Source of the DNA: Prorocentrum cordatum
Lineage: Eukaryota
NCBI GenBank assembly: GCA_963575745.1
Contig: CAUYUJ010000170.1
Location: 372,001 to 436,000, forward strand
Direction of reading: 5' to 3'
DNA: 64,000 bases
The notes beneath the pieces are model-generated. The model ran no database searches. It worked only from the letters and a program-made list of their open reading frames with translations, and was not told the origin of the DNA. A program made the translations under genes and the position numbers. The first letter of the stretch is position 1. Each line of letters starts with the position of its first letter. Shown here one piece after another: positions 16,473 through 62,902 of this stretch.

Positions 16473-16510
16473 TTTGGCCTTGGCCTTCCTGATGGCGTCG
16501 CCCAGGCCTT

Positions 16511-21995: not shown

Positions 21996-22095
21996 NNNNN
22001 NNNNNNNNNNNNNNNNNNNNNNNNNNNNNNNNNNNNNNNNNNNNNNNNNNNNNNNNNNNNNNNNNNNNNNNNNNNNNNNNNNNNNNNNNNNNNNN
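21996..22095. other. Assembly gap (100 N)
   Basis: Run of N. May hide further exons and makes contiguity across it uncertain. Confidence 1.
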
Positions 22096-33883: not shown

Positions 33884-34266
33884 TCCTCCTTCTCCTCCTC
33901 CTCCTTCTCCTCCTCCTCCTCCTACTCCTCCCTCCTCCTCCTCCTCCTCCTCCTCCTCCTCCTCCTCCTCCTCCTCCTCCTCCTCCTCTCCTCCTCCCTC
34001 CTCCTCCCTCCTCCTCCCTCCTCCTCCCTCCTCCTCCTCCTCCTCCTCCTCCTCCTCCTCCTCCTCCTTCTCCTCCTCCTCCTCTTCATTCTCCCCCCTC
34101 GTCCTCCTTCTCCTGCCTCCCTGCTCCTTCTCCTCCCCCTTCTCCTCCTCATCATCATCCTTCCTCCTCCCCTCCTCCTCCTCCTCCTCCTCCTCCTCCT
34201 CCTCCTCTCCTCCTCCTTTTCCTCCTCATCATCATCACCATCATCACCATCATCCTTATCATATTC

Positions 34267-34315
<49 letters not shown>

Positions 34316-34656
34316 CCACTGTCATCATCATCACCATCATCATCATCAGCATCATCGTCATCATCATCGTCATCAGCATCATCATCATCATTATCATCAG
34401 CAGCATCACCAAAAGCATCATCATCCCTCCACCATCTCCTCCAACTCCTCCTCCCCCTCCTCCTCCTCCTCCTCGTCGTCCTCCTCCTCGTCCTCCTTCT
34501 CCTCGTCCTCCTCCCTCCTCCTCCTCCTCCTCCTCCTCCTCCTCCTCCTCCTCCTCCTCCTCCTCCTCCTCCTCCCTCCGCCTCCCCTCTTCCTTTCCTC
34601 TCCTCCTCCTCCTCCTCCTCCTCCTGCTCCTCCTCCTCCTCCTCCTCCTCCTCCTC

Positions 34657-34687
<31 letters not shown>

Positions 34688-35420
34688 TCCTCATCTTCCT
34701 CCTCCTTCTCCTCATCCTCTCCTCTTCCCTCCTCCCTCATCCCTCCTCCTCCCTCCTCCCTCCTCCCCCCCTCTTCCTCCTTCTTCCTTCCTCCCTCCTC
34801 CCGCCTACCTCCTCCTCTCTCCTCCCTCCTCTGACCTCTCCCCTTCTCCATCATCCCTCCTCTTTCTCATTCTCCTCCTCCTCCACTTCCTCCTCTTACT
34901 ATTACCATGATTATTAGTAGTATTAGTGTTGCTGTAATGATTCGTGTTAGTATCAGTATGGTTTTGATTAATAGTAGTATTAGTAATAACATTAGAATTA
35001 GTATTGGTAGTTAGTAGTATCCTCCTCCTCCTCCTCCCCCTCCTCCTCCTCCTCCTCCTCCTCCTCCTCCTCCTCCTCCTTCTCCTCCTCCTCCTCCTCC
35101 TCCCTCCTTCTCTCATGCTCCTCCTCCTCCTCCTCCTCCTCCTCCTCCTCTTCTTGGTTATGCTGCCCCTCCTCCTTCATTTCCTGCTCCATCTCCTCCT
35201 CCTCCCCTCCCATGTCCTGCTCACCTCTTCCTCCATCTCCTCCTCCTCCTCCATCTCCTCCTCCGTGTCCTCTCCCCTCCTCCTCCTCCTCCCTCCTCCT
35301 CCTCCTCCTCCTCCTCCTCTTCTCCTCCTCCTCCTCCTCCTCCTGATCGCCCTCCTCCTCCTCCTCCTCCTCCTCCTCCTCCTCCTTCTCGTCCTCCTCC
35401 TCCTCCGCCGCCTCCTCCTC
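33884..35420 (+). repeat. Compound (CCT)/(CAT)/(TAG) low-complexity tract
   Basis: Direct inspection. Confidence 0.95.
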
Positions 35421-35519
35421 ATCTTCCCGGTCTCCTGGCTTCGCTGTTCACTCTCGCCCCGCCTTCGGGCCTGGCGCTTCTCGCCTGACACCTCCTCACC
35501 AGTCAAGCCCTTCGGCTGA

Positions 35520-35870
35520 GAGTTTGCAACAGTTTCACGGATGGCGGGCGGGCCGTTTTCAAAACGTGACTCTCGCCTTCGAGCCGCGCACGCACGTCGT
35601 GGAAAGGTTCCAAGCGTTTCAGGGGTGGAGGGCGGGTCGTTTTCGAGATGTGGCTCTCTCGCCCCAGCGCCGCGCACAGTCGTCCCAAGAGTTTGCCAGA
35701 GCTTCACGGGTGGAGGCCGGGTGGTTTCGAACTGTGGCTCTCATCTCAGAGGCGTGCACGTTCGTCCTGACAGTTCGCAAAGAGCTTCACGGATGGAGGG
35801 CGGCACATGCTCAAGATGTGGCTCTCGCCTGCGCGCCGCGCAAACTCGTCCTACGAATGTACAAGCGGTT
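35520..35870 (+). repeat. Second block of the ~83-bp satellite
   Basis: Same unit as 32400-33550, about 4 copies. Confidence 0.85.
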
Positions 35871-36299
35871 CAAGGATTAGTACGGCTGACGTCCCAGCAT
35901 GTTTCTGGCACGATGTGAAAATTGGCAGGGCGCAGCCGATGCGTTGATTCGGGGTGCTGGGGTCCCAAGGATGGCTTCTGGCACGATCCAGGATCGTCCG
36001 GACGCAACTGCGACTTTGACTCGGGGCGCTGAGGAGGAGGAAGACGACGAGGAGGAGGGGGACGAGAAGGAGGAAGCGGAGGAGAAGAAGGCTGATGATG
36101 ATGATGATGAGGAGGAGGAGGAGGAGTAGGAGGAGGACGCAACAGTGAATTATGTTCTGGCACGGTTTAAAAATTTCAGACGTGTACCTTCCAACGGGGT
36201 CCTTCCCTCAGTGACACTGAATCTTCGTGGGGATCTCTGACGAAGGAACGTCGAGGTCGGGCATATTACAAAGTCGTGAATGGGTCTGGGGTTTACACT

Positions 36300-37425
36300 G
36301 GTCCTCTTCCCTCCACCCTCCTCCTCCTCCTCCTCCTCCTCCTCCTCCTCCTCCTATCACTCCCTCCCTCCCTCCCTCCCTCCCTACCTCCATCCCTCCC
36401 TCCCTCCCCCTCACCCCCTCCCGCACCCATCCACACTCCCTCCACTCCTCCTCGTCCTCGTTCTCCGCCTCTTCCTCCTACTCCTCCAACTCCTCTCCTA
36501 CTCCTCCTCCTACTCCCTCCTCCTCTCCTTCTCCCCTCCTCCCTCCTCCTTCCTCTCTCCTCTCCTCCTCCTCCTCCTCCTCCTCTCCTCCCTCCTCCTC
36601 CTCCTCCGCCTCCTCCTCCTCCACCGTCTCCTCCTCCCCCCTCCTCCTCCTCCTCCTCCTCCATCATCATCCTCTCTCTACTCCGCCTTCCGCCTCCTCC
36701 TCCTCATCCTCCTCCTCCTCCTCTCCCCCTCCTCCCTCCTCCTCCTCCTCTCTCTCCTTCCTCCTCCGCTCTCCGCCTCCTCCTCCTTCCTACTCTCCTC
36801 CTCATCCTCCTCCTCCTGCATCTCCTCTAAACCCTCGTCTCCTCCTCCTCCTCCTCCTACTCCTCCGTTTCCGCATCTCCTCTTTCTCCTCCTCCTCCTC
36901 CTCCTCCTCCTCCTCCTCCTCCTCCTCTATTCCTCCTCCTCCTTCTCCTCCTCGTCCCTCCTTTCTCATCCCGCTGTGGTCCCGCTTGACGCGCCATAAG
37001 GGTATGTGACCGCTCTCCTCCTCATCCTCCTCATCCTCCTCCTCCTCCTCCTCTCCTCATCTTCCTCCTCCTCCTCACATCCCCTCTCCTCCTCGTCTCT
37101 CCCTCATCCTCTCTCCTCCTCCCTCCCCCCCCCTCCTCCTCCTCCTCCTCCTCCCCCTCCTCCTCCTCCCCCTCTCCTCTCATCCTCTCCCTCTCTCCCT
37201 CTGTCCCTCCCCTCCTCCTCTCCTCCTCCATCCTCTCCCTCCTCCTCCTCCTCCTCCTCCTCTCCGTCTTCATCCTCCTCCTCCCCCTCCGTCTCCTCGC
37301 ATTTTCCTTCCCCCCTTTTTTTTCCTCCTCCTCCTCCTCCTCCTCCTCCTCATCCCCCTCAGCCTCCTCCTCCTCATCTTCTTCATCAGAATCATTATCA
37401 TGAGTATCAACATCATCATCACCAC

Positions 37426-37466
<41 letters not shown>

Positions 37467-39669
37467 GCATCATCATCATCCTCATCATCATCATCATCAG
37501 CATCATCATCATAATCAGCATCAGCATCAGCAGCGTCACCATCACCATCATCATCCCCAGGATGATGATCATCATCATCAGCAGCAGCAGCAGCGTCAGC
37601 ATCAGCATCAACATAAGCAGCAGCATCATCAGCATCAGCATCATCAGCAGCAGCAGCAGCATCAACATCGGCATCGTCATCATCATCATCATCAGCATCA
37701 TCATCAGCATCATCATCAGCATCAGCATCATCAGCAGCAGCATCATCATCATCAGCAGCAGCATCATTATCATCATCAGCCTCATTATCCACAGCATCAG
37801 TATCATCATCATCAGCAGCGGCAGCAGCATCAGCATCATCATCATCATCAGCATCATCATCATCATCAGAATCATCACCATCACAAGCAGCATCAGCATC
37901 ATCAGCATCGTCAGCATCATCATCATCATCATCAGGTTCAGTATCGCCGACAGCATCCTCAACAACATCATCACCACCAGCATCAGCATCATCAACGTCA
38001 TCATCATCATCAGCATCATCATCATCATCAGCATCATCACCATCATAAGCAGCATCAGCATCATCAGCATCGTCATCAGCATCATCATCAGCATCATCAT
38101 CATCAGCAGCATCATCACCATCATAAGCAGCATCAGCATCATCAGCATCGTCATCATCATCATCATCATCATCATCATCAGGTTCAGTATCACCGACAGC
38201 ATCCTCAGCAACATCATCACCACCAGCATCAGTATCGTCAACGTCATCATCATCATCATCATCAGCAGCAGCATCATCATCATCACCAGCAGCATCATCA
38301 GCATCATCAGTATCATCAGTATCCTCATCCTAATCCTCATCCTCGTCATCCGCACCAGCATCAGCATAAACATTATCAGCATCAGCATCAGCATCGGCAA
38401 CGTCAGCATCAGCAGAATCAGCATCATCCTCAGCAGCAGCATCATCTGCATCATCATCACCACTATCTCCATCATCCTCGTCATCATTATCAGCAGCAGC
38501 AAATATACCGTCATCAGCAGCATCATCATCAGCAACATCATCACCATCAGCCCCATCATCACCATGACCATCAATATCATCATCAGCAGCATCAGCATCA
38601 TCATCACCATGCTCAGGATGATCATCCTCATCATCAGCAGCAGTGTCAGCATCAGCATCAGCATCAGCAGCATCATCATCGTCATCATCATCATCAGCAG
38701 CATCAGCATCAGCATCAGCACCAGAATCGTCATCAGCATCATCAGCAACATCAGCATCATCATCATCATCATCATCATCAGCAGCAGCATCAGCATCAAT
38801 ATCCTCATCTTCATCCTCATCCTCATCCTCATCAGCATCAGCATCAGCATCAGCATCAGGATCAGCATCATCATCAAGAATCATCATCATCCGCAGCATC
38901 ATCAGTATCAGCATCATCCTCATCATCAGCAGCATCATCATCGTCATCATTGTCATCATCAGCAGCAGCATGATCATCATCACCATCACCATCCCCAGGA
39001 TGATCATCCTCATCATCAGCAGCAGCGTCAGCATCAGCATCAAACTCAGCAGCATCAACAGCGTCATCGTCATCATCAGCAGTATCAGCATCAGCATCAG
39101 CATCATTATCAGCATCATCATCATCAGCAGCCTCATCCTCATCCTTATCCTCATCAACATCAGCATCAGGATCAGCATCACCATCATGAATCATCATCAT
39201 CATTATCATCATCATCATCAGCATCATCATCAGCAGCATCATCATCAGCATCATCATCATCAGCAGCAGCATCAGAATTATCATGATCATCATCATCATC
39301 ATCAGCAGCATCATAAGCATCATCATCAGCAGCATCATCATCAGCATCATCATCACCATCACCATCCCCAGGATGATCATAATCATCAGCAGCAGCAGCG
39401 TCAGCATCAACATCAGCAGCATCATCATCACCGTCATCATCATCAGCAGCATCAGCATCAGCATCGGCATCATCATCAGCATGATCATCATCATCATCAT
39501 CATCATCATCAGCCCCATCATCATCAGCATCATCAGTATTATCATCCTCATCCTCATCCTCATCAGCATCAGCATTAGCATCATCATCATGAATCATCAT
39601 CAGCAGCAGCATCAGCAGCATCATCAGCATCATCATCAGCACCATCATCATCGCCATCATCAGCATAAC

Positions 39670-39706
<37 letters not shown>

Positions 39707-40050
39707 GTCATCATCATCACCATCACCATTACCATCCCCAGGATGATGATCATCATCAGCAGCAGCAGCGCCAGAATCAGCGTCAACATCATCAGCATCA
39801 TGATCACCGTCATCATCATCAGCAGCATCAGCATCAGCATCAGCATCAGCATCAGCATCAGCATCATCATCAGCATCATCAGCATCATCAGCAACATCAT
39901 TATCAGCACCATCAGCATCAGCATCATCAGTATTATCATCCTCATCCTCATCAGCATCAGCATCAGGATCAGCATCATCATCATGATTCATTATCAGCAG
40001 CATCATCATCAGCATCATCCATCTTCCTCCTCCTCCTCCTCCATCATCCT
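36300..40050 (+). repeat. (CCT)n followed by ~2.6 kb of degenerate (CAT/CAG)n with higher-order repeats
   Basis: Marker catccccaggatgat recurs at ~37551, ~38990, ~39363 and ~39733. Confidence 0.95.
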
Positions 40051-41033: not shown

Positions 41034-41136
41034 GTCCCGAGGAAATAGAGGAGCAAGAACAGGGAGAAGGAACGTCTCAGCTAAAGTCGAAGGGAAGCCT
41101 CTCGTCCCTTTATCCTTTCCCTCCTGTCGGGAGGCA

Positions 41137-41167
<31 letters not shown>

Positions 41168-41182
41168 GAGGAGGAGGAGGAG

Positions 41183-42815
41183 CCCACGCCTCAAGGGGAG
41201 TCCCCATCCCGCCCGCGGCCCGCGCGGGGCCTGTCCTCAGGCCCTCCGCCGTGGAGACGAGCTGGTCACCGAAATCGTCGTGGTGGAAGCTGGCGACGCC
41301 GGGCGACGAGCTAGCGACGGCAGCGCCGTCATGAAGAAGAGGCCCAGCAACGGGAACAGGGCCAGCAGGAGGGTCGACGCTGTCGCCGCCCGCAGGGGGA
41401 GCATCACCAGCACCTGCAAGAACCAGGGCAGAAAGCTCCGCATGTTGGTCATCAGGATCTCCTGGGTCCTCAGGAGAAGCAGCAGATGCAATAACCACAG
41501 ACTGGGCCGCCGCGAAGTCGTTGTCCTCATCTTCTTCCACTTCCAATAGAAGAGCAAATACGTCCTCATCGTTCTCCATAGATATCGATGTGCCATTGTC
41601 TGCAGAAGCCGCAACCGCAGGCGGCGAGAAGGAAGCGGGAGCCACATCATCGAGAGGTACGTCAGCACCATGAACTGCACAGCCAGAGGGTAGGGCGTCC
41701 GCATCGACAACATCATCAGGTTGCCCGTGACAGGGGAGAGTCTGGGCAGGTAGCGGCGCTGCTCCCATAGGGTTGGTCGGCCAAGAGACGCGGACGCAAT
41801 GGGTGAGAAGCGCCCACGCGTTGCGAGAAGCGGGCGAGAAGCGCCCACCCCTTGCGCCCACGCAGTTTACACGCGGGCGAGAAGCGCCCACCCCTTGCGT
41901 CCCCAGCTGAGAAGGCTGAACAGGGCTTGACCCAGATCGGTTGTCGCCCTCGCTGTCCGACCCAGCATCTCGAGGTCAAGACCGCCGCCTTCGTCGTCAC
42001 CCAGTACACTACCAGGGTTCTGAAGCATCCAGGTAACCAGGCTCCGCTGTTCGTCCGACAAGTCGAAGTTCTCGCACAGGCAGCCCACCGCGTGCGCCAT
42101 CTGTCGGTCTGAGAGCGGCTCTGGAGGATTCCGCGGCCGAGCGAGCGACGAACAGGGCCTCACGAACAGCAGCACGCCAGCGCCGAAGACCATTGAGGGA
42201 ATGTGCACTCGCTGTAGCCGTAGCCGACGAGGTAGCAGCCGCCAAAGCCCCCGAAGGGGGGGCTCCCGAAGCACGACTTGACATCGTCCGTCTCGCAACA
42301 CCACCAACTGACCCATCTGGATAGATGACTCCAAGCCCGTGCGCCGCCATCGTCTCGTTAAAGCCGTCGTCGGAGCTGCTGGAGGAGATTGTCTCATGCG
42401 GTTCCGCAGGGGAAAGAAGAGCAGCGGGTGGTAGCCTAGAAGAGGAGGCCGTAGGGTCAGACGGCTCGCCTGTGTCCACCCTCGAGCGACGAACGGCAGC
42501 CTGCACTTGAGCTTCGAATTCCTCGCCTGTCAAGATCGGCTCAAAATGATGTGAATATTCATCCGTCGTCATCTCGGTGTCGTTGCCAGCAGTAGCCTCC
42601 ATGTGCTCCATGTCCAGGTCTGCGGGCTCAGGGTAGCCGACGGTGTCGACGCTGCGGTTGCCCTCGTCGGGCAGGTACGGAGCGTCGCCGTCGTCGCAGT
42701 CGCCCTCCACAGGCACAAGGCGCGGCAGGAGGCGCGAGTGCGTGTTGAGCGACAACGGAGGCCCAAACGGAAATACCTGGCGCATTCGAAGGAGGTCCGC
42801 CTTTTTAAGCTTCAT
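41183..42815 (-). pseudogene. Possible ORF3 or long ORF2 tail of the LINE (acidic, low complexity, frameshifted)
   Basis: ORF 42009-42815 (MKLKKADLLRMRQ...) and ORF 40893-41891 are co-oriented with the LINE and run straight into the terminal (CCT)n. No domain recognised. Confidence 0.35.
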
Positions 42816-42966
42816 TCATACGCGTTAAGTCGGCGGCCCCGCCCCGTTGCCAGGGTGCACAGCAAAGTAAACCTGATGATGAGGCCAGCCACGTATGAGT
42901 ATATGTTCGCCCGCACAATTGCCTCAATGCCAACAGCCGCGAGGATTCGACCGTGCCCCATGCTGT

Positions 42967-45900
42967 TTAGAAGTGATGGTATAGCCGAGCTCTCCCCACC
43001 GTCGAACTGTGCCACGCGGCATGGCACATGCTGGATCCAAGAATGCGCCTCTCCTGCACCGTCCCTTCAGGGGTAGCAAACAGCCCACAGAAAGCCCAGA
43101 TTGGAAACACGCGGCTGGAAAACTTAGTACCCCAGAACATCCAGTCGTCGAAACCGCTGCAGGTGACGGGTTCCAAGAAGAGCGAGGGGCCCCAGTTCCG
43201 CGCCCAAGACTCCAGCAGAACTGCAAATCGCGCCAAACGCCGAAGCATGATAGGACCGACTCCAGCCGGCGGCATAGCAGAAAACCTGACCTCGCCAATG
43301 GCATCCGGATAACGCACGCGATGTGGTAGAGTGTCGTGAAGGAAACGGCGTCCGATTGGCAACATACCGAGAAGATCATCCCACCAAGCATGCTCGATCG
43401 ATGGTAGTTCGAAACAAATGACAGGAAGCGGGTCGGATGGCTCTGGAGGGCGGCGCGTGATCCTGGCGCGCCCAGCCGAAGGCCAAGCCAGCGCACGTGT
43501 CCGCACTGCGCCTCTCAGCGCTGTGAGCAACTGATAGGGAAGCACGTGGTGCAGATGCCGAAGACCATGATATGCTATAGTGGCAAGATGCGTGTTCATC
43601 ACATCCTCGCCGAAGCTGCCGCGAAGACCCCATCGATCAAGAACGTGTGAAGGTAAGTATCGTCGCCCTCCTGACTTAACCATGGCAAGACCCCATGCGA
43701 GCCCACGACATTCCCAATAGTGTGCCATGTCATCCCGCTCGCCACAGCACCCAAACAGGCACGGCTTGACACCAGACACGGATGCAATGCGAGCCGGGGT
43801 TAACCAACCGCCACAAAACGCTCGAATAATACAGGTGGCCCAAGCTACGGGGCATGTCGTCATCTGCTTGCGCAGGGCGTCCCAATCCAGCGCGTTAATC
43901 TCGTTGCCGAGCTGCGGATACCATTTAGTCCACCGTTTGACGAAGGTGGTGGCCAAAGGCGATGCGCAGGTGGACTGCAAGGGCTGATGTGCGCTTATAT
44001 ACTCAGTTGGTGAAGCCTGGTGCGCAATCCGCTGGGCACGCTTTTCGGCTGAGTCATCCTCGAACATGGCAAGATGAACGGCAACAACACCTGATGACGC
44101 TGAGACCTTACAAGCATCGGACAGAAACTCGACGAAAGACGGTACTTGCCAGAAAGAAGGCGAAAGTCCACCACAAAGATCTGCCAAGACGCGCTGCATG
44201 ATGCAGGATGCGCTGCAATCTGCCACCTCGATGATGCCCTTTTCAGGCATGCCAGATACGATGCGTGATCAGGATGCGCTGCAATCCCAGATCGAATAAG
44301 CGCGGACTTCGCTGAGATGGCCAGGCTGCGAAGGCGAGGCCCACCACAAGCACCAAGCGCATGATAGTCGACTTGCCGCAAGGCACCACCAGGGAAGCGC
44401 AGCAGCTTCACGAGCACATGTATGTCCTGACTCTTCAGCTTCTCGGGGAGCGGTAGGAATTGTGCCACAGAGCCCATGATGGGCTCGTAGTGTAGTTGAT
44501 GCCATTCAAGCTCGCAGGCGCCGCAGAGGCGGCAAGGGCACTGACTCGAGCGCAGTATTTACCCCATGGCGTCGACCACGACTGAGGGAGCGATGCTGCT
44601 GGACCCATCCATATCCCCAGGCACAGCAAAGTGGCCTCCACTTTGAAGGATGACCAGTCCGACAGCTGTTGTTGCAGCAAGACATGCACACGCTGCTGCA
44701 GCTCGGCCGAGAATGGACCTGCCAGTGGAACAATCACACACTTAGCTGGTTTGAGCTTCAAGCTGGCCAGCTTGGCTGCCACCGCCATCGCACGCGATAA
44801 GAGTTTCAGATCGATCATATCGAACAGCACTCCCCCGATATCATCAGCACACGCTCGAAAGACTCCTCGCTGTCGGAGTTCGATCCCCTGCCTGATGCCC
44901 TCCAGAATCGGCGAGGTAGCTGCGGCGAACAAGCTCCCAGATAAGGCGCAGCCTCGAACGATGCCGCACCAGATACGGAAGAGGACCTCAGTGACGCCCG
45001 CAGTTCTGCCCAGGGCAGTGGCAATCGCATAGAGAGAGCGTATCGCCTCTAGTAGAGCTGTCGGAAGCCGAAGATGTTCAAGAATGATGAAGAGGAAACT
45101 CTGGCTGAGGCTGGGGAACGCTTGCCCCAAAGCCAGAGCCACGAGAAACGGCATCCGCTCCAGCGGGTTGGGCATCAGCGAGGCGGCTCTGGCTACCACG
45201 TCGGGCTCCAGAATGTTTGAAGCGTCGGCCCGAGATAAAACCACGCTGCGCTGCTGATGTAGAGCACTGCGCGATCGGGGAGAAGGCGGCGTTGAAGGTG
45301 GCCGAGATAACATGCATGTCCGTATTGCGTAACCCGAGCGTGCGCACCGTGTCGGGGGACCTGTTGACCCCTCTGTCATCGTCGTCACCTGTTTGACAGC
45401 CTTTGGGAAGAAAAGCTCGAGGAGTGTCGCCGCACTGTGCGAATAAACGTTGCCCGCCCATCATCCGCACACAGGAGAACCAGAGGACCTTCGCGCCCAC
45501 CTCGTGGGCGGCCCAGGCGGCGCACGGCAGCCCGCCGACGCCAGGAGAGGATCGCGACGGCGCAAATTTGATAAGCACACGCTGCAGCATCTCAAGAGAC
45601 GGAGGAGCAAGCCCATCAAACGCACAAGGGTGCACGAACCGTTCAGCCCATCGCCTTGTGCGTGCAGGAAAAGCTTGGGGAGCGGCCGAATTTGGTGCCC
45701 AATAGCGCGCGAGCGCGCCCAGCTTCTCGAAGGGGTCGGCGTAGGCGACGCCGTCGACCTCGATGAAACGCAAGGCTAGCTTCTTCGAGAAAGGAACCCA
45801 AAGCCGAGCTTTCCGTTGCACCGCAGCAACCGTGCCAGCAGATGGACGCTGACGACCTTTCCCGTGAACTGCATCATGTTGTAATCGCTCCAATTCCAGC

Positions 45901-47160
45901 TCAGCGGACCGAAGTTGAGTAGCGCCCGCCCAAGCCTGAAAAGCAGCATCGTCCGTGATGATGACCTGGGTGTCTTGCACCTGCAAACACGATCGCGCAA
46001 CTTTAGATGCATGGCATAACTTCTGAGCAAGAGTAGTGTTCTGTCGCCAGGCGCATCGCGCGGCTTGACGAACAAATACCAATTGGGCTTCCAGGGAGTC
46101 ACTTTCGTTGACCAAGATACTCTGCGTTGTGTCGAACGCTGCTGCTTGAACCAAGTCCTTATAACGGAATAATTGCCTCGGTGGTGACATGCCCAAGAAG
46201 AACTGCCCATCGTTGTCAAGGAGCACGCCTAGGCGCCGCCCAAGTTCAGGCCGTTTATAGATATGTGCAGGGGCGGGCTTGCGATAGCAGCCATCCAGAT
46301 CTCGATGCCGGATATGAACACGAATCGCCGCGCGATCCGAGAGCTCCTCGGCGTGCATCTCTTCGGGCGCGGAGACAAACGACACGGAGTGCTGGAGTTG
46401 GCATGACATCCAATTCGGTTCAGATAGCCAGAGCCGGTCGATTTGCGACATGGCCTTCGCGCCCTGGCAGTAGTGGGTCGGATCCTCAGACGCCATCTCT
46501 AACATCCGATGAAACACCGAAGACCAAAGCCTGGCATGGGAGCGAGAGTCATTCGTAACGTTGCGTGGCTTTGCTGCCGTCGGTTGCGCAAGGTGGAGCG
46601 CGTCGTGGGCCGCGAAGTTGAGGTCGCCACATACAACAACTAGTCGGGCACGATGATCGAGAGAAGCCCAATCTATATCAGCCTGAATTGCTCTGACCAC
46701 CTTCTGAACTTCTGCCGCCGAGAGCCCATGATTGCGAATATTGGAATGACGAATCTCAGCACACGCGCCCACCAAAATTGCCCGCAGGACTCTGCCCCTG
46801 ACGAGCGGCGTGGACGAAGAAGCACTTGAGGAAGGCAAAGAAAGCGGCACGATCGTAGCAACACCGCCTCGGCCACGACCTGTCTCATCATCCCCGTCAT
46901 GAACAGATGCGAAAGAACCAAAGACCGTAGCTGATGGTGCGACTCTGCGCATGCAAACTTCCAGCTCACCCTGGGTCTGGTGTACTTCTTGGAAGGCGAC
47001 GACGGAAGACGAGATGCCAATCAGGTCCAGGTAGGAGGCCTTGCTCATCGAGCGTGCGCCACGGAACTGCAGCAACGCTCGAGCATTCCACGACAAAAAC
47101 GTGAGCTCCTGACAACGCGGCGCCAAGCCGCCGTCAACCTTGTGGTAGAAGATGTCATCG
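42967..47160 (-). pseudogene. LINE ORF2: APE endonuclease + reverse transcriptase + CCHC zinc knuckle, frameshifted
   Basis: APE: FLSWNARAL, FQEVH, GGVATI, CGDLNF, SQIDR, LSDR. RT: FLPKG, RTLGLRNTD, QRGFISGR, QAFPSL, GIVRGCALSGSLF, ACADDIG, LKPAKC, LCLGIWMG. Knuckle: CLFGCCGERDDMAHYWEC. Confidence 0.92.
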
Positions 47161-47166
47161 TACTTG

Positions 47167-48349
47167 CTAAAGAGACCATTCAGGCTCCACGCTGGGCTTG
47201 AGGATGTGGCCAATCGACTTGTTGATACCAGCACGCTTCCAGCCACGAGAGGTGAGCGCGGCATCATGAAAGTAGCAGAGCGCGGGGTCGCGGCCAGGCT
47301 GAAGTTCGAATCGCAGTACAGGATTCCAGTTTTCAGATAACCAACCATTCTGCCGATCGAGGAAGAACTTGCACTGCGGGTGCTCCTCGCGGAGCGCGCT
47401 CGTGACCTTCTTGCCAGCGATCTCGAGCTTGATCTGGTACGGCGACTTATCTGGCCCAGTGTGCAGTTGCGTTGAACCGCCAGAGGCCAGCTGGCACAGG
47501 GAAACGCATCCACTGGCCCTTGCCAAGACGTAGCGCTGCCAAGGCCTGGGAGACTCGCTTGCAGGCGAAGACGACGGCGACTGTGAACTGGATGACGAAA
47601 ATGCGGTCCTGTTCATCTCCTTCGATCTTGAAGCCTTCGATCTCAGCGTCCTGGAGCCATTTCTCGACAGAAGTGACCACATCCTTCGTACAAACCATCG
47701 TGGGCGCGACGGCTTTGAGGATGGTGCCGTCAATGATGCGCTGGAAGCCAATGCCAGCGGGCTTGGGAGGCTGCGGGACTTTGTTGGCCATGGCGAACTC
47801 CTTCCGCATTTCCTCCAGAGAGCTCTGCATGTCGGCAAACTGCCTGGCGAGGGTCTCGGCGCGAGCGTCCAGATCGTCGATCTTGGCAGCCACGGTGTCC
47901 AACTGGCGCTGGATGCGCTGCTCGAGGTCGTTGAGTTCCGATCGCAGTTGAGCCTCCATTTCGTTCTTGCAGTTCCCATGGACGGCCTTGATCGCGTTCT
48001 CGAGTGTGCGGACGGCAGGCATAATTGGGTCCACAGCCTTGCCAGCAGCGTCGGCCGCGGAGGTAGCCGCGATAGCGGCCAGGTCGTCCTTGAGGGTCTT
48101 GAACTCCTGCGGGAGGCGCTTGCCGAGCTGCTCGGCAATGAGGCCATTGATGTGGGCACCCCAGTCATCGTCGGCCATGTCGTATGCTTCATCTTCAACG
48201 TCGGAGATGGTACGGCTCGACCTCGAGCGATCATCATCCACCCGACCGCCAACAGGAACAGCATCATCACCACCACCCCGCACCGCTGCTGGGCGCCCCG
48301 CTGCAAGAGTCTTCTTCTTGCGCTTGGGAGTTCCGCCATTCGGGGGCAT
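47167..48349 (-). pseudogene. LINE ORF1-like protein (basic N-terminus, coiled coil; frameshift near 47490)
   Basis: MPPNGGTPKRKKK, then the heptad-rich ELNDLEQRIQRQLDTVAAKIDDLDARAETLARQFADMQSSLEEM. C-terminus continues in another frame (GPDKSPYQIKLEIAGKK...EPEWSL-stop) immediately before ORF2. Confidence 0.75.
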
Positions 48350-48459
48350 GCGCGGGCCGCGCGCGCCGAGGGCAAAGTGGCTGCACGCGTTGCTGGATCT
48401 GGCCGCGGATCAGCGGTGTCCCTTTTGCCTGGAGGCTGAACAGCCCCCCAGGTGGACAT

Positions 48460-48481
48460 CTTGAGCCAAAATGGCTACGGA
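48460..48481 (-). other. Complete 22-nt dinoflagellate spliced leader at the LINE 5' end
   Basis: Plus strand CTTGAGCCAAAATGGCTACGGA is the reverse complement of TCCGTAGCCATTTTGGCTCAAG (DinoSL, DCCGTAGCCATTTTGGCTCAAG). Followed by ATG, not by the GT of an SL-RNA intron. Confidence 0.97.
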
Positions 48482-49594
48482 AGGAGGAGGAGGGAGAGGA
48501 GGAGGGAGAGGAGGAGGGGAGGAGGAGGAGGAGGAGGAGGGAGGAGAAGGAGGAGGAGGAGGAGGAGGAGGAGGGGAGGGGCCCTGGGTCAGAAAGCCGC
48601 CTCCCCCCCCCCCTGATCCCGGCGAGCCCCGCCGGGGGCGCCAGCGGGGGTCCTGGGGGAGCCGCCTTCCGGGTCGGCGGCGCCGGCCGGAAGGCCTCCG
48701 CCGTGGAGCGTCCGATCGGCGGCGTGGGCACCTTGAGCGCTTCTCGCCCGCTGTCGGGACCAGAGACTATCACGGATCGGTCTGGCTCGAAAGATGCACG
48801 CCTCCTCCTCCTCCTCCTCCTCCTCCTCCTCCTTCCTCCCCTCCTGATCCTGATCCCCTCCTCCTCCTCCTCCTCCTCCTCCTCCTCCTCCTCCTCCTCC
48901 TCCTCCTCCTCCTCCTCCTCCTCCTCCTCCTGCTCGAAAGATGCCGCAGAAAGTCGGGGTCTGGGGCTTCAATCGTGACTGTTCGCGGCTTCGCAATGTC
49001 GTCGCAGCGACGGATCTCAGAGTTCACGGAGGGAAGAGAAAACCTCCGCCCAATCCTGGGGAGGCCGACACGAGGGCGGGTTCTCAGGCCAGGGTCCAGA
49101 GGCGGATCTGGCCGTGGGGGCGAGGGCCCCACCAGGAGGCACAGAACGGCGAAAAGGGGGAAGGGCCCAGGTGGAGGCTTTCGCCCCAGATCCATTCCTG
49201 ATGAGAAATAAGATCATACCCTCGGAGATCTGGGGCACGGTGAGGGCATTGGATCAGGAACCATCGGATCAGGAATCCGGGGTCTGGAAGCTGGTGGAAC
49301 TCCAACCTTGGAGTGGCCATGGGTATCACAGCATCCCTCATCAGACAAGGAAGCCTCCAGGGTCTGAAGCCTCATGGACGCATTCCTTAACCAGCGCCCC
49401 AACCGTACCCTGAGATCCGACGGCGCGCAACACCACGACCGAGCCCCAGACCCCATCTTTGTGCACACTCTTTCGAGCCGGATCGGCCTGCGAGGTCCCA
49501 GGGTCAGAATTTGAGCGAAAACGCCCGCTTTGAAAATTAGCCTGGCGAAGGACCCAACCATATGCAGTTGTGAGTAATGCTGGTGTGAGTACCG

Positions 49595-51585
49595 TCTTCG
49601 GTGGATCCCCCTATGGGGCCACGAACCGTTTGAAGGGTGTGCCGAAATGGGTGTGGGGGCGGCATGCGAACGTTGCCACTGGGGCCTTCGGTGGAGCTCC
49701 TTATGGGGCCACGAAGCGTGTGAGGGGTGCACCGAAGTTGGTGTGGGGGCGGCATGCGAACGCAGCCACTGGGGCCTTCGGTGGAGCTCCCTGTGGGGCC
49801 ACGAAACGTGTGAGGGGTGTGCCGAAATTGGTGTGGGGGCGGCATGCGAACGCAGCCACTGGGGCCTTCGGTGGAGCTCCCTATGGGGCCACGAAACGTG
49901 TGAGGGGTGTGCCGAAATGGGTGTGGGGGCGCATGCGAACCCAGTCACTGGGGCCTTCAGTGGAAATCCCCATGGGGCCACGAAACGTGTGAGGGATGTG
50001 CCGAATGGGTGTTGGGGAGGCATACGAACCAGGCCACTGGGGCCTTCGGTGGAGCTCCCTATGGGGCCATGAAACGTGTGAGGGGTGTGCCGAGGGGTGT
50101 GCCGACATGGGTGGTGGGGAGGCATGCGGACCCTGCCACTGGGGCCTTCGGTGGAGCTCCCTATGGGGCCACGAAACGTGTGAGGGGTGTGCCGAAATGG
50201 GTGGTGGGGAGGCATGCGGACCCTGCCACTGGGGCCTTCGGTGGAGCTCCCTATGGGGCCACGCGTGTGAGGGGTGTGCCGAAATGGGTGGTGGGGAGGC
50301 ATGCGACCCTGCCACTGGGGCCTTCGGTGGAGCTCCCTATGGGCCACGAAACGTGTGAGGGGTGTGCCGAAATGGGTGGTGGGGAGGCATGCGAACCCTG
50401 ACACTGGGGCCTTCGGTGGAGCTCCCTATGGGGCCACGAAAACGTGCGGTGAGGGGTGTGCCGAAACGGGAGGCATGCGGACACTGGGGCCTTCACTATG
50501 GGGCCACGTGTGAGGGGTGTGCCGGTGGAGCTCCCGCCATTGGAACGAAACGTGTGAGGGGTGTGCCGAAATGGGTGGTGGGGAGGCATGCGAACCCTGC
50601 CACTGGGGCCTTCGGTGGAGCTCCCTATGGGGCCACGAAACGTGTGAGGGGTGTGCCGAAATGGGTGGTGGGGAGGCATGCGACCCTGCCACTGGGGCCT
50701 TCGGTGGAGCTCCCTATGGGGCCACGAAACGTGTGAGGGGTGTGCCGAAATGGGTGGTGGGGAGGCATGCGGACCCTGCCACTGGGGCCTTCGGTGGAGC
50801 TCCCTATGGGGCCACGAAACGTGTGAGGGGTGTGCCGAAATGGGTGGTGGGGAGGCATGCGAACCCAGCCACTGGGGCCTTCGGTGGAGCTCCCTATGGG
50901 GCCACGAAACGTGTGAGGGGTGTGCCGAAATGGGTGGTGGGAGGCATGCGAACCCTGCCACTGGGGCCTTCGGTGGAGCTCCCTATGGGGCCACGAAACG
51001 TGTGAGGGGTGTGCCGAAATGGGTGGTGGGGAGGCATGCGAACCCTGCCACTGGGGCCTTCGGTGGAGCTCCCTATGGGGCCACGAAACGTGTGAGGGGT
51101 GTGCCGAAATGGGTGGTGGGGAGGCATGCGGACCCTGCCACTGGGGCCTTCGGTGGAGCTCCCTATGGGGCCACGAAACGTGTGAGGGGTGTGCCGAAAT
51201 GTGTGAGGGGTGTGCGAAATGCGGGGGTGGGGGAGGCATGCGAACCCTGCCACTGGGGCCTTCGGTGGAGCTCCCTATGGGGCCACGAAACGTGTGAGGG
51301 GTGTGCCGAAATGGGTGGTGGGGAGGCATGCGAACGCAGCCACTGGGGCCTTCGGTGGAGCTCCCTATGGGGCCACGAAACGTGTGAGGGGTGTGCCGAA
51401 ATGGGTGGTGGGGAGGCATGCGGACCCTGCCACTGGGGCCTTCGGTGGAGCTCCCTATGGGGCCACGAAACGTGTGAGGGGTGTGCCGAAATGGGTGGTG
51501 GGGAGGCATGCGAACCCTGCCACTGGGGCCTTCGGTGGAGCTCCCTATGGGGCCACGAAACGTGTGAGGGGTGTGCCGAAATCGG
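49595..51585 (+). repeat. Tandem satellite array, 90-bp unit (same family as 1-775)
   Basis: tcggtggagc at 50701, 50791 and 50881; about 22 units, most homogeneous toward the right end. Confidence 0.95.
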
Positions 51586-51588
51586 TGG

Positions 51589-51705
<117 letters not shown>

Positions 51706-51710
51706 CGATG

Positions 51711-53982
51711 ATTTTTTTCCTGCGCGCGGGGGGCAACATGATTTGACAACGATGTCCGTAACACCCATGGTGCGCAGAACAAGGTGTGTGATCATGCGAC
51801 AATGCGCGAGCTCTAAACGAAAACGGCAGAAATTGAAACAGACCGAGGCTTGCCAAACAACTTTCTAGCGAGCAAGTCCAGAATTTGAAACAACGGGAAC
51901 CGCACCAACCGACCGCTGTCGTCACACGACTACCGTGTCGTGCCCATGCGAGCTGCGGAAGTTGAGGGCAATCATGGCAATCATTACAGTCGGACTCTCC
52001 TACCCCGGCCCGACAGCACCCGTCCCCGAGCCCTCCCCACCTCCCTGCCAACTGTGCTCTGCTCTGCCGCCGAATGCTCGCCGTGCGAGCTCTGGAGAGC
52101 GGCCGAAAGCCGGCTACACAGATTGCCACGGCGGGCGTCAGAAAAAAACTCTACCTTCCGCGGGCTGCGAGACAAAAGCGTGTCCTGAACTGTACACATA
52201 CATAGATCGCATGCTGTAAGCCGCGGTTTAAATCGAAGTCGCTTCGAACGCGCCCGAACAAGCGATCCTGATTCGAAAATCTAAAAAATGTGAAGGCACG
52301 TGCACTTACACGATACAACCGCAATAGACAACTTCACGTGCGATCAACATATTAGCCGGATGGCATTTAAACTCTTGTGCCAGCCACCGTCCCGCCCGAG
52401 GTCAAAATATGTTTCGCCTGAGGCACGGTGCATGGGCGCATGGCCAATCAAAGCCAGACCCGATCTGATTTAGAGGCACCTGCGAAGCTAGGGCCCCCTG
52501 TATCCACAATAGCGGTGACGGTGACGCTTCATACCCGACGCGCTTCGACGTATGTGGCCTCGCCATGTCCGACGGTACTCAGGTCGAGATGCCCATCCAG
52601 ACACCACACGTAAAACCCCCGCACCCCCCGACAACACCCCAGCCTATCTCCCCATATCTCCCCCTTCAGTTCCCCCGTCATATCTCGTTGTTACCTAGCA
52701 GACTGTGAGCCCATTTGGCCACCGCTTCCTGCGGAGAGGACGCTCCCATCCTGGCCTGCCGCATCAGATGGCAGGCAACACCAGACCTCTAAGAAGTGGT
52801 GCAATCTATACCATCGCAACGGCAAAGGGGATGCCGCTGCAACCTGGGCTTGAGCATTTGTGACGCCCACAGCGGCGCGCCGCTCGTTGCGCTCCACCAC
52901 ACTATCGCTACACATGTGAAATCAGCCGCTAGTTGCAAGATGTCCAGCAGACGCTGTCATCTTCTGACAGCTGGGCAGACTCGCCAGCAACTCGAATAGC
53001 AACTTGGCATGTCCGGCGAGAGATTTGGGCGGATTGAAACCCCGCTCGCAAATCGATCCCTCGATAATGTATGATACAGGGCAAGCAAAAGTACAAATGT
53101 GGTACACCTTGCACAACGGATGCGGAGGATGGGGGAGCGGAGAGGGTCCGCTAACCTCGAAGAACACCGCTGCATTCGCCTTCAAGGCAAACGCACTGGG
53201 ATGCGGAAGGCTGTGCAACGCAACCCGTGCGCATAGCCCACACGAGCTCTACGAATCCTCGACCCTGGCGGCTCCCCCCACTGCGCAGCACCGCCGGACG
53301 ATCAGTGAAATCCGACCTGCACGTGCTGCCGCGCCCAGGAACTGTACGAATCGCGCCACTGGGCAAGCAAGGCTTGCGGGTCCTTCGACAGCTCTTGTGG
53401 GGCCCGGGAGCTGGCCGAACTTGGACAAGTGCTCGAACTCGTCGACACCTGCCGCGAAAAACTCGCCGGATAATCATCATCGAATTCGCCCCTGCCGGCA
53501 CGCTTGGCGGATGATGTCTTGCCTGCATTACGGCTGGGATTGCTGGCGCAGCTGGAACACGTCCTGCTGCAGGCGCTACCAGCGCTGCTGCCGCTGAGGC
53601 GTCCGCTGGCCGCCGATTGCGTGATCCGCGCAACGCCATCTTTCGACACCCTCCACCTGGTGTCCACGGTGACGGACAAGCCCCGTCGGCTTGCGAGGCT
53701 GGGGTTCGCAGTGCGCCCACACGACTCGCACAAGCGGCCATGCAGCATCGTGAGGCGCGTCTCCATCTGTCCCGTGATGTCTGTGCTGAAATCTCTGGCG
53801 AGTGGGGTCACGTCGGATGACTCTTTCACGAAATTCGCCATTCTTCCAAGCCGCGGTACCAGGAGCCCGAGCTCAGCTGTGGACTTGAAACTGAAGCGCC
53901 GGCACGGCTGCGAAGTCGGCATATCGGAGATCCTCTGCGAAAAAGTGCGCCAGGCCGAAACTTGAGCCAAAATGGCTACGGA
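51711..53982 (-). mobile_element. SL-capped retrocopy (~2.27 kb) of an unidentified transcript, inserted in (CAT)n
   Basis: Complete SL at 53961-53982, short A7 at the 3' end (51712-51718), and plus-strand (GAT)n on both sides (51587-51710 and 53981-54115). Only broken ORFs (MPTSQPCRRF.../MANFVKESSD...). Confidence 0.8.
53961..53982 (-). other. Complete 22-nt dinoflagellate spliced leader (second copy)
   Basis: CTTGAGCCAAAATGGCTACGGA on the plus strand. Followed on the minus strand by TTTCGG, not GT. Confidence 0.97.
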
Positions 53983-53989
53983 TGATGAA

Positions 53990-54062
<73 letters not shown>

Positions 54063-54072
54063 CTGATGATGC

Positions 54073-54116
<44 letters not shown>

Positions 54117-61179: not shown

Positions 61180-62902
<1,723 letters not shown>

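What the first reader, a model, noticed from the sequence alone, without database searches (positions are those of the whole stretch)
41183..48481. A LINE whose 5' end is a complete trans-spliced leader: candidate promoter-less, SL-defined retrotransposon cycle
Seen: an exact 22-nt DinoSL sits directly at the start of an ORF1/ORF2 LINE, with no SL-RNA intron (no GT) after it and only (CCT)n upstream on the sense strand. Established: dinoflagellate mRNAs receive this SL by trans-splicing, and relict SLs mark host retrogenes. Inference: the element's own RNA was trans-spliced, then fully reverse-transcribed and inserted, so the host spliceosome rather than an internal promoter or ribozyme defines its 5' end. 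The inserted SL carries two AG dinucleotides (CCGTAG and CAAG) just downstream of a pyrimidine-only (CCT)n tract. That could regenerate a trans-splice acceptor at every insertion and let the element be expressed from read-through transcription; here it is co-oriented inside a probable host intron.
Basis: partly seen in the sequence, partly recalled or inferred. Interest (0 to 1): 0.88.

Follow-up and report, generated by a model that had tools for sequence, protein, structure and literature searches.

The report
LINE copy capped by spliced leader
A broken copy of a jumping gene (a LINE) in a dinoflagellate genome starts with the exact 22-base leader that the cell adds to its own messenger RNAs, so the element's RNA was processed like a host message before being copied back into DNA; whether the whole family depends on this is not shown.

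Summary
An exact 22-nt DinoSL lies at 48460-48481 (-), is not followed by GT, and abuts a 7.3-kb APE+RT LINE. The same (CCT)n repeat flanks the SL+LINE unit on both sides, so the SL belongs to the inserted unit. This was a cDNA of a trans-spliced LINE RNA.

Three corrections:
- The ATG after the SL is not the homology-supported ORF1 start; a 110-nt 5' UTR follows the SL.
- The copy is degenerate, with one frameshift in ORF1 and at least three frame changes in ORF2.
- The (CCT)n is target DNA rather than a purpose-built pyrimidine tract. A second exact-SL retrocopy 5.5 kb away (SL...A7) sits in (CAT)n.

The family is multi-copy: 494 contigs of one DNA run lie on it. Its nearest named proteins are from Prorocentrum cordatum. 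No genome, RNA run or other full-length copy could be reached, so the "promoter-less, SL-defined cycle" is untested. The absence of an SL relict argues mildly against it.

I found no paper describing an SL-capped LINE. I rate it a new variant of the known DinoSL retrocopy phenomenon, of moderate interest.

Seen in passing: giant-virus MAGs that carry dozens of DNA-encoded DinoSLs in front of their genes.

The parts
48482..48579 (-). 5' flank: (CCT)n microsatellite, read as the upstream half of the insertion target
   Evidence: TRF row 48482-48579, period 3
48460..48481 (-). DNA-encoded dinoflagellate spliced leader, 22/22, first base T; followed by AT, not GT
48350..48459 (-). 5' UTR of the LINE (110 nt); begins with an ATG that is out of frame with the homology-supported ORF1
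47167..48349 (-). ORF1 (basic N-terminus, coiled coil, C-terminal domain), broken by a 1-nt insertion near 47487 (frame -1 to 47486, frame -2 from 47487); stop at 47167-47169
   Evidence: table 4 (1 nt left out at 47487 in 4 contigs of X1)
46413..47093 (-). ORF2 apurinic-type endonuclease domain (starts at SWNARAL, 47093); candidate ORF2 start codons at 47267 and 47348 overlap ORF1
44729..45700 (-). ORF2 reverse transcriptase; active-site motif CADD at 44848; N-terminal part in the endonuclease frame, core in another frame (frameshift between about 45078 and 45460); upper bound approximate
43708..43761 (-). CCHC-type cysteine motif (CLFGCCGERDDMAHYWEC) of the ORF2 C-terminal region, in yet another frame
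41183..43707 (-). Rest of the ORF2 C-terminal region (pieces matching P0002 at 43239-42919 and 42677-42507, in different frames) and the 3' UTR; no poly(A) at the end
   Evidence: (X1 contigs cover all 30 bins down to 41160)
41130..41182 (-). 3' flank: (CCT)n, same repeat and phase as the 5' flank (either the downstream half of the target or the element's own repeat tail)
51712..53982 (-). Second SL-tagged retrocopy, supporting evidence for the process. SL 53961-53982; 38-nt 5' UTR; intact 206-codon ORF 53305-53922; 3' UTR; A7 at 51712-51718. Flanked by (CAT)n 53983-54116 and (TCA)n 51589-51711 in continuous phase.

Best explanation
This is a full-length (relative to the mature RNA) but now degenerate copy of an APE+RT LINE. 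Its template RNA had received the dinoflagellate spliced leader by trans-splicing.

Shown: the SL+LINE unit is one insertion inside a (CCT)n microsatellite, and the SL is the exon only.

Inferred: a LINE transcript was trans-spliced at an AG lying directly before ATGTCC. This removed everything upstream, including any upstream promoter. The capped RNA was then reverse-transcribed to its 5' end by target-primed reverse transcription at a nick in the repeat.

This is the process that makes DinoSL-tagged retrogenes, applied to the retrotransposon's own mRNA. The copy has since acquired, or was assembled with, frameshifts and is not itself a source element. Whether SL-capped copies can be re-expressed is not shown.
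For: - Exact 22-nt SL with 0.00 chance matches in 100 shuffles, followed by AT rather than the GT of SL RNA genes (PMC12584245 passage).
- No Rfam family at gathering score in the window, and no ribozyme or SL RNA at the 5' end.
- The same (CCT)n lies on both sides, in phase, so the SL sits inside the inserted unit.
- LINE identity rests on endonuclease and RT domains, an ORF1 homolog 86% identical and an ORF2 homolog 52% identical, both named Prorocentrum cordatum by NCBI, 718 relatives at E<=1e-3, and a family profile that hits LINE-1 ORF2p at E 4.7e-40.
- The family is multi-copy. 494 contigs of DNA run X1 lie on it (34 at >=99%, 57 at 95-99%, 151 at 90-95%, 252 under 90% identity), covering 30 of 30 bins.
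- In the same window a second exact SL heads a retrocopy with an intact ORF (98% identical to a 206-aa database protein) and an A7 tail, inserted in (CAT)n. So 2 of 2 DNA-encoded SLs in the window mark retro-insertions in trinucleotide repeats.
- Suggestive only: two X1 contigs align from 48444 towards the SL and then continue into a diverged but homologous 5' UTR (table 7). Only 16 LINE bases lie between 48444 and the SL, so their laid part probably includes the SL. That would make them other copies with the same junction. The table does not show their extent.
Against: - Only one copy's junction was actually read.
- There is no poly(A) or recognisable target-site duplication at the LINE's 3' end. 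A duplication would be invisible inside a repeat.
- The frameshifts could be assembly errors; the one at 47487 is a G to GG change.
- The junction has no independent read support. Read laying skipped 48479-48505 as repeat.
- A reverse-transcriptase template switch onto another SL-bearing RNA cannot be strictly excluded.
Confidence: 0.82

Rival explanations
1. Master-copy model (compatible with the best explanation; it concerns the family). Source elements have their own upstream sequence, or sit behind a natural acceptor in a transcribed gene array. Trans-splicing strips that sequence, so every SL-capped daughter is promoter-less and a dead end.
For: This copy has exactly one SL and no CCATTTTGGCTCAAG relict. 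That is what a first-generation daughter of a source without a DNA-encoded SL would look like. The copy is degenerate. Most X1 contigs are diverged: 403 of 494 are under 95% identical.
Against: No source copy with a longer 5' end was seen, and none could be looked for. The depth of X1 contigs does not fall towards the 5' end (table 2), although contig depth is a poor measure.
Confidence: 0.45
2. One reading: a promoter-less, SL-defined cycle. SL-capped copies are transcribed by read-through from upstream host transcription and re-trans-spliced at an AG inside the DNA-encoded SL. Use of the last AG (CAAG|) would regenerate exactly one SL each round.
For: It is logically required that a trans-spliced LINE RNA cannot carry an upstream promoter. 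Retrogenes in dinoflagellates are known to be re-expressed this way, leaving relict SLs (passages in PMC12014239, PMC7245778 and PMC6050394). The LINE, the second retrocopy and the only other recognised gene (a helicase at 16.5-18 kb) are all on the minus strand, 3 of 3. Possibly two further X1 contigs share the same junction.
Against: There is no relict, although the acceptor that leaves the commonest relict (CCATTTTGGCTCAAG; passage in PMC12014239) is the first AG (CCGTAG|), which would leave one. The (CCT)n is also present at the 3' end, and the neighbouring retrocopy has (CAT)n upstream, so the tract looks like the target, not an evolved acceptor. No RNA evidence could be obtained. No host gene was identified around the element.
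Confidence: 0.25
3. The DNA-encoded SL itself drives or defines expression, either as a promoter (TTT(G) motif) or as a ready-made 5' leader, so that no trans-splicing is needed for the next round.
For: The hypothesis was published for retrogenes (PMC6050394, passage seen). Giant-virus MAGs place DNA-encoded DinoSLs directly before genes, which suggests a DNA-encoded SL can serve as a leader when a promoter sits just upstream.
Against: Here the upstream sequence is (CCT)n, not a promoter-like element. A promoter inside the SL would start transcripts downstream of it and lose the SL. Nothing was tested.
Confidence: 0.1
4. The reverse transcriptase switched template from the 5' end of LINE RNA to SL RNA or another SL-capped mRNA, as in U6/L1 chimeras of mammals (recalled). 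The SL would then not show that the LINE RNA itself was trans-spliced.
For: SL-bearing RNAs are abundant in the nucleus, and template switching is a known LINE reverse-transcriptase property (recalled, not tested).
Against: A switch onto SL RNA would copy from its 3' part and include intron sequence. A switch onto an mRNA would bring that mRNA's 5' UTR. Here the join is exactly at the SL exon's last base.
Confidence: 0.04
5. The LINE inserted next to a pre-existing SL (an SL RNA gene or pseudogene, or an older retrogene), like the SL-gene-specific elements SLACS, CZAR and CRE of trypanosomatids (recalled).
For: None beyond adjacency.
Against: There is no SL intron or other SL-gene sequence on either side. 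The same (CCT)n brackets SL+LINE, so the SL is inside the insert. The endonuclease is APE-type, whereas the SL-gene-specific elements are recalled to use a restriction-like endonuclease. Rfam finds no SL RNA.
Confidence: 0.02
6. Assembly artefact: a chimeric join of a retrogene 5' end and a LINE within repeat-rich sequence.
For: The window is repeat-rich and contains a 100-N gap at 21996-22095. The junction abuts a microsatellite.
Against: The join is exact to the base at the SL exon end. The 5' UTR beyond it is part of the repeated family (loose-end consensus at 48444 homologous to the UTR).
Confidence: 0.03

Closest known systems
DinoSL-tagged retrogenes / recycled processed cDNAs of dinoflagellates (Slamovits & Keeling 2008, recalled; described in passages of PMC6050394, PMC12014239, PMC7245778)
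   Same: There is a DNA-encoded spliced leader at the 5' end of an inserted, intron-less unit. It is not followed by the SL intron and is explained by reverse transcription of a trans-spliced RNA.
   Different: The cargo is the retrotransposon's own bicistronic RNA rather than a host mRNA. There is no poly(A) remnant. The SL is full and unrelicted. The papers I read treat retroposition and retrotransposition separately (bioRxiv 10.1101/783902 calls them independent processes, passage seen) or call the reverse-transcriptase source unknown (PMC6050394).
SLACS / CZAR / CRE1-2, site-specific non-LTR elements in spliced-leader RNA genes of trypanosomatids (recalled)
   Same: A LINE whose 5' end abuts spliced-leader sequence in a trans-splicing organism.
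   Different: Those elements insert into SL RNA genes at a fixed internal position, use a restriction-like endonuclease, and keep the rest of the SL gene downstream. Here the SL is the complete exon, the flanks are a microsatellite, and the endonuclease is APE-type.
L1Tc / ingi of trypanosomes with the Pr77 internal promoter (PMC1874656; title and abstract start seen in the listing)
   Same: An APE-type LINE living in a genome where mRNAs are SL trans-spliced, facing the problem of keeping a promoter.
   Different: By its title, L1Tc solves the problem with an internal promoter that yields unspliced transcripts. The template of the present copy was SL-spliced.
Human LINE-1 (ORF2p structures 8uw3, 8sxt, 8c8j) and L1-made processed pseudogenes
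   Same: It has the ORF1 + ORF2 (APE, RT, CCHC) architecture. The family profile's best solved match is L1 ORF2p at E 4.7e-40. A neighbouring mRNA retrocopy has an A-tail.
   Different: A single-sequence search finds no PDB match, so the relationship is distant. There is no poly(A) tail on the LINE. Both insertions are in trinucleotide repeats. The clade was not determined.

Membership tests
DinoSL-tagged retrocopy | Full or relict DinoSL encoded in DNA directly 5' of the unit | tested here: met
   22/22 match at 48460-48481(-); 0.00 expected by chance
DinoSL-tagged retrocopy | The SL is the exon only, with no SL RNA intron (GT...) or SL-gene context | tested here: met
   Followed by ATGTCC; no Rfam hit; the flanks are (CCT)n
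DinoSL-tagged retrocopy | 3' poly(A) remnant | tested here: not met
   The LINE ends ...GGCGTGGGCT and is followed by (CCT)n. The neighbouring retrocopy does have A7.
DinoSL-tagged retrocopy | A discrete insertion with target DNA on both sides | tested here: met
   The same (CCT)n repeat lies on both sides, in phase. A target-site duplication cannot be resolved inside a repeat.
APE-type non-LTR retrotransposon (LINE) | Apurinic-type endonuclease domain | tested here: met
   Exo_endo_phos E 3.6e-7, 30.6 bits, over the 24.5 cut-off
APE-type non-LTR retrotransposon (LINE) | Reverse transcriptase domain | tested here: met
   RVT_1 E 1.3e-6, 28.8 bits, just under the 29.6 cut-off. CADD motif. The profile of 21 sequences (this ORF2 piece and 20 relatives) hits L1 ORF2p at 4.7e-40 and R2 at about 1e-29.
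APE-type non-LTR retrotransposon (LINE) | Dispersed multi-copy family | tested here: met
   494 contigs of run X1 lie on it at 80-100% identity, across all 30 bins. There is no second copy in the window.
APE-type non-LTR retrotransposon (LINE) | Intact ORFs (an active element) | tested here: not met
   Frameshift in ORF1 at about 47487; ORF2 pieces lie in frames -3, -1, -2 and -3. Assembly error is not excluded.
SL-gene-specific LINEs (SLACS/CZAR/CRE) | Insertion inside an SL RNA gene, with the rest of the gene downstream | tested here: not met
   The complete exon is present, and there is no SL-gene sequence on either flank
SL RNA gene | SL exon followed by a GT donor and the intron | tested here: not met
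   AT follows the exon. The reference junction CAAG-GTACAC comes from PMC12584245.
   No genome is held. No RNA run was listed. There were no relatives in the metagenome, viral or prokaryote-genome collections. The only hint is two X1 contigs (table 7).

The most novel reading that the evidence does not exclude
This LINE family, and perhaps dinoflagellate LINEs in general, has no promoter of its own. Its 5' end would be set by the host's spliced-leader trans-splicing. Each new copy would carry the leader in DNA and be re-expressed only through read-through transcription of the unidirectional gene arrays and re-splicing at an AG of the inherited leader. The same elements would supply the reverse transcriptase that makes the thousands of SL-tagged retrogenes, with trinucleotide repeats as preferred landing sites.
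Probability: 0.25. Interest if true: 0.8.

Novelty: new variant of a known kind. Interest (0 to 1): 0.55.

Why it matters
Retroposition has produced a fifth or more of dinoflagellate genes. Yet the passages I read call the responsible reverse transcriptase unknown and lean towards LTR elements (PMC6050394). One preprint calls retroposition and retrotransposition independent processes (10.1101/783902).

A LINE that itself carries the spliced-leader tag, lying 5.5 kb from an SL...poly(A) retrocopy with both in trinucleotide repeats, physically links the two processes. It points to LINE-type target-primed reverse transcription as a source of retrocopies.

It also poses a sharp question that can be answered from existing assemblies and Iso-Seq data. 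Trans-splicing removes any upstream promoter from the RNA that a LINE copies. So do dinoflagellate LINEs survive by riding host transcription and the leader, or does trans-splicing sterilise their offspring?

Tried and rejected
- Whole-genome search: no genome is held for this window.
- Self-BLASTN of the element against the window found only itself.
- Earlier notes of this scan: nothing by sequence, place or words for the LINE.
- The look-up of sequencing runs listed no RNA holder. It listed one DNA run with a 0.13 share of words (X1) and two sister runs.
- Read laying: X2 gave 1 contig and X3 gave 0. The 5' junction could not be read because 48479-48505 was skipped as repeat.
- The search for related loci with ORF1 alone and with the two-sequence ORF1 alignment in metagenome contigs found no relatives.
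- The same in viral contigs with ORF1 and ORF2, and in prokaryote genome contigs, found none.
- phmmer of the two ORF2 pieces against PDB gave 0 hits. Only the family profile worked.
- ESM Atlas gave generic endonuclease/RT clusters, and the clade was not resolved. No RT phylogeny was built, for want of reference LINE sequences.
- Rfam gave nothing at gathering score. The 13 sub-threshold hits at E<=1 were 12 microRNA-type matches on a G/C hairpin at 48547-48621 and one snoRNA-type match inside ORF1. I treat these as chance.
- tblastn of the LINE proteins against the 119 IMG/VR loci gave no hits.
- The ORF1 homolog search covered only proteins of 165-525 aa.
- Literature: full-text searches (plus for the virus side-note), and passages from 12 papers. 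None describes a LINE headed by DinoSL. Subscription papers were not readable, and no supplements were opened (for example the dinoSL transcript table of PMC10666404).
- Searches failed on term syntax. One search was re-sent in changed form. One search was not repeated.


Full report
**Observation.** On the minus strand the window reads ...(CCT)n-TCCGTAGCCATTTTGGCTCAAG-ATGTCCACC... The 22-nt stretch lies at 48481-48460. The 21-nt DinoSL core occurs exactly twice in the 64-kb window, and 100 dinucleotide-preserving shuffles gave none. The leader is followed by AT. The SL RNA gene junction quoted in PMC12584245 is CAAG-GTACAC (passage seen), so this is not an SL RNA gene. Rfam finds no RNA family at gathering score anywhere in the window, and nothing meaningful in 47900-48700 at E<=1.

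**The element.** Downstream lies a non-LTR retrotransposon.
- Pfam finds Exo_endo_phos (E 3.6e-7, above its cut-off) in frame 45081-47612(-).
- Pfam finds RVT_1 (E 1.3e-6, 28.8 bits against a 29.6 cut-off) in frame 44438-45460(-).
- An exhaustive HMMER search with the 750-aa endonuclease/RT piece found 718 relatives at E<=1e-3 and 250 at E<=1e-10.
- A profile of this ORF2 piece and 20 relatives hits human LINE-1 ORF2p at E 4.7e-40 and R2 proteins at about 1e-29. The single sequence finds nothing in PDB.
- The RT motif is CADD (44848), and a CCHC-type motif lies at 43708-43761.
- ORF1 is a basic, coiled-coil protein. Its only close database relative is an NCBI protein named Prorocentrum cordatum, at 86% identity. 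The closest ORF2 relatives carry the same name.

The window therefore probably comes from that species or a near relative. I could not place the clade.

**Corrections to the description.**
- The ATG directly after the leader opens a frame whose first ~320 codons are serine/arginine/proline-rich and have no homolog. The frame supported by the P. cordatum protein has its first Met at 48349. The leader is thus followed by a 110-nt 5' UTR that happens to begin with an out-of-frame ATG.
- ORF1 is broken by one extra G near 47487. Four related contigs of run X1 lack that base (table 4).
- The ORF2 pieces matching relatives lie in frames -3, -1, -2 and -3.
- This copy is therefore degenerate, unless these are assembly errors.

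**The leader belongs to the inserted unit.** The 3' end of the element (...GGCGTGGGCT, 41183) is followed by (CCT)n at 41130-41182. This is the same repeat, strand and phase as the (CCT)n at 48482-48579 before the leader. One (CCT)n array was split by a single insertion that begins with the leader and ends with the LINE 3' UTR.
- This excludes a LINE that landed beside an older leader.
- It makes an SL-gene-targeting element (SLACS/CZAR-like, recalled) untenable. No SL-gene sequence is on either side, and the endonuclease is APE-type.
- A template switch of the reverse transcriptase onto SL RNA or another mRNA would be expected to bring intron or foreign UTR sequence. The join is exact at the exon end.

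**A second case in the same window.** The other exact leader (53961-53982, minus strand) heads a 2.27-kb unit. It has a 38-nt 5' UTR, an intact 206-codon ORF, a 3' UTR and A7 (51712-51718). It lies between (CAT)n and (TCA)n arrays that join in phase if the unit is removed. The ORF is 98% identical over its full length to a 206-aa database protein and has paralogs, one of them named P. cordatum. This is a textbook SL...poly(A) retrocopy.

So 2 of 2 DNA-encoded leaders in the window mark retro-insertions, both on the minus strand and both inside trinucleotide repeats. Period-3 arrays make up between about 6% of the window (perfect tracts >=30 nt, a figure that includes a 100-N gap and an A-run) and about 16% (TRF period-3 rows, summed by hand). 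Two independent hits would then be expected 0.4-2.7% of the time. That suggests a target preference or fragile sites, on n=2.

The LINE has no A-tail while the retrocopy does. I therefore cannot say that this LINE family made the retrocopy.

**Family level.** No genome is held, and only one DNA run holds related sequence. Laid on the element, 494 of its contigs match (34 at >=99%, 57 at 95-99%, 151 at 90-95%, 252 below 90% identity) and cover all 30 bins. The family is therefore dispersed and diverse.

The junction itself was skipped as repeat. Two contigs align from 48444 towards the leader and then run into a diverged but clearly homologous 5' UTR (table 7). Only 16 LINE bases lie between 48444 and the leader, so their laid part probably contains the leader. 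That would mean other copies share the junction. This is inference, not shown.

Scans of the metagenome, viral and prokaryote-genome collections for ORF1/ORF2 relatives found none. Short fragments about 80% identical to ORF2 carry a EukProt label of a green alga. I did not verify what kind of data they are.

**Mechanism.**
- Shown: the template of this copy carried the leader at its 5' end.
- Established (passages in PMC7245778, PMC12014239, PMC6050394): dinoflagellate mRNAs receive this leader by trans-splicing. Re-inserted cDNAs carry it. Re-expression of such copies usually leaves a truncated relict, CCATTTTGGCTCAAG.
- Inferred: the LINE transcript was trans-spliced at an AG directly before ATGTCC, which removes any upstream promoter. 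It was then copied in full by target-primed reverse transcription at a nick in the repeat.

This is coherent but untested. Against it:
- This copy has no relict.
- The pyrimidine tract is simply the target repeat.
- No host gene or intron could be recognised around the element. Pfam on 146 other ORFs found only an SF1 helicase at 16.5-18 kb on the minus strand.

A master-copy model, in which SL-capped daughters are sterile, fits the single unrelicted leader at least as well.

**Comparison and novelty.** The closest known phenomenon is the DinoSL-tagged retrogene. The difference is that the cargo is the retrotransposon itself.
- In the passages I read, the reverse-transcriptase source for retroposition is called unknown, with LTR elements favoured (PMC6050394).
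- LINEs are suspected for viral insertions (PMC10235124).
- In trypanosomes, L1Tc uses an internal promoter giving unspliced transcripts (PMC1874656, title and abstract start only).
- Six searches and passages of 12 papers gave no description of a LINE headed by DinoSL. Subscription literature and supplements were not seen.

I rate it a new variant of a known kind. It is real, tidy and bears on an open question. It rests on one degenerate copy, and it is an expected consequence of known biology.

**Seen in passing.** A scan of IMG/VR for the leader, made to look for other SL-capped elements, returned 119 stretches, almost all in giant-virus MAG bins.
- The loci have a median GC of 21%.
- In 127 of 134 distinct contexts the leader is preceded by A and by a roughly 90% A+T stretch with recurring motifs. 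In only 3 is it followed by GT.
- The first ATG lies a median of 49 nt downstream, and in 93 of 133 cases it opens an ORF of >=100 aa.
- One bin (951 kb, 94% complete) has NCLDV capsid genes (E 8.2e-40) and 67 exact leaders, against 0 for the reversed control.

These viruses appear to encode the host's spliced leader in DNA in front of many genes. I found no paper on this by title or abstract. It deserves its own follow-up.

Noticed in passing
IMG/VR loci L001-L119 (e.g. L012 3001-3021, L024 3001-3121); handle G001: Giant-virus MAG bins carry many exact DNA-encoded DinoSL copies directly before genes. There are 119 stretches and 134 distinct contexts. The base before the core is A in 127 of the 134, and only 3 are followed by GT. 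The 40 nt upstream are about 90% A+T with recurring motifs. The first ATG lies a median of 49 nt downstream. One 951-kb bin (94% complete, NCLDV capsid E 8.2e-40) has 67 copies against 0 for the reversed control. This reads as viral mimicry of the host spliced leader without trans-splicing. No paper was found by title or abstract. An earlier scan note (e1-5533202) on a shared promoter/leader module in an AT-rich marine giant virus may concern the same thing; I did not check it.
   Followed up: partly
window 51712-53982 (-): A second exact DinoSL heads a retrocopy with an intact 206-codon ORF (98% identical to a database protein; paralogs include one named P. cordatum) and an A7 tail. It is possibly a functional retrogene of unknown function.
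   Followed up: yes
window 41130-41182 / 48482-48579 and 51589-51711 / 53983-54116: Both SL-tagged insertions sit inside trinucleotide microsatellites, (CCT)n and (CAT)n, with phase continuity across the empty site. Period-3 arrays are 6-16% of the window, so this hints at a target preference of the retroposition machinery or at fragile repeats. n=2.
   Followed up: partly
window 1-766, 49596-51590, 60011-61174: A ~90-bp satellite (unit GGGGCCTTCGGTGGAGCTCCCTATGGGGCCACGAA...) occurs in three arrays. By the TRF consensus units the third looks inverted relative to the first two. One array lies between the LINE and the second retrocopy.
   Followed up: no
window 33884-40019 and 61291-62902: Very long imperfect trinucleotide arrays: (TCC)n about 1.5 kb, (CCT)n about 1.1 kb abutting (TCA)n about 2.6 kb, and (ACT)n about 1.6 kb.
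   Followed up: no
window 12987-17954 (-): Long minus-strand ORFs with SF1 helicase domains (AAA_11 E 2.8e-13, AAA_12 E 2.3e-18). This is the only other recognisable coding region among the 146 ORFs scanned. No SL relict is nearby.
   Followed up: no
proteins P0014, P0045, P0101: Short fragments about 80% identical to this LINE's ORF2 are labelled by EukProt as Pyramimonas sp. CCMP1952, a green alga. This suggests dinoflagellate sequence in that data set, and possibly that the LINE family is transcribed. The data type was not verified.
   Followed up: no
locus L067 631-3021 (-): A GC 48% IMG/VR contig has a DinoSL followed by an ORF with a viral RdRP_1 domain (E 4.5e-7). It resembles the SL-bearing dinoflagellate RNA virus transcripts mentioned in PMC10235124.
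   Followed up: no
window 21996-22095: Assembly gap of 100 N.
   Followed up: no
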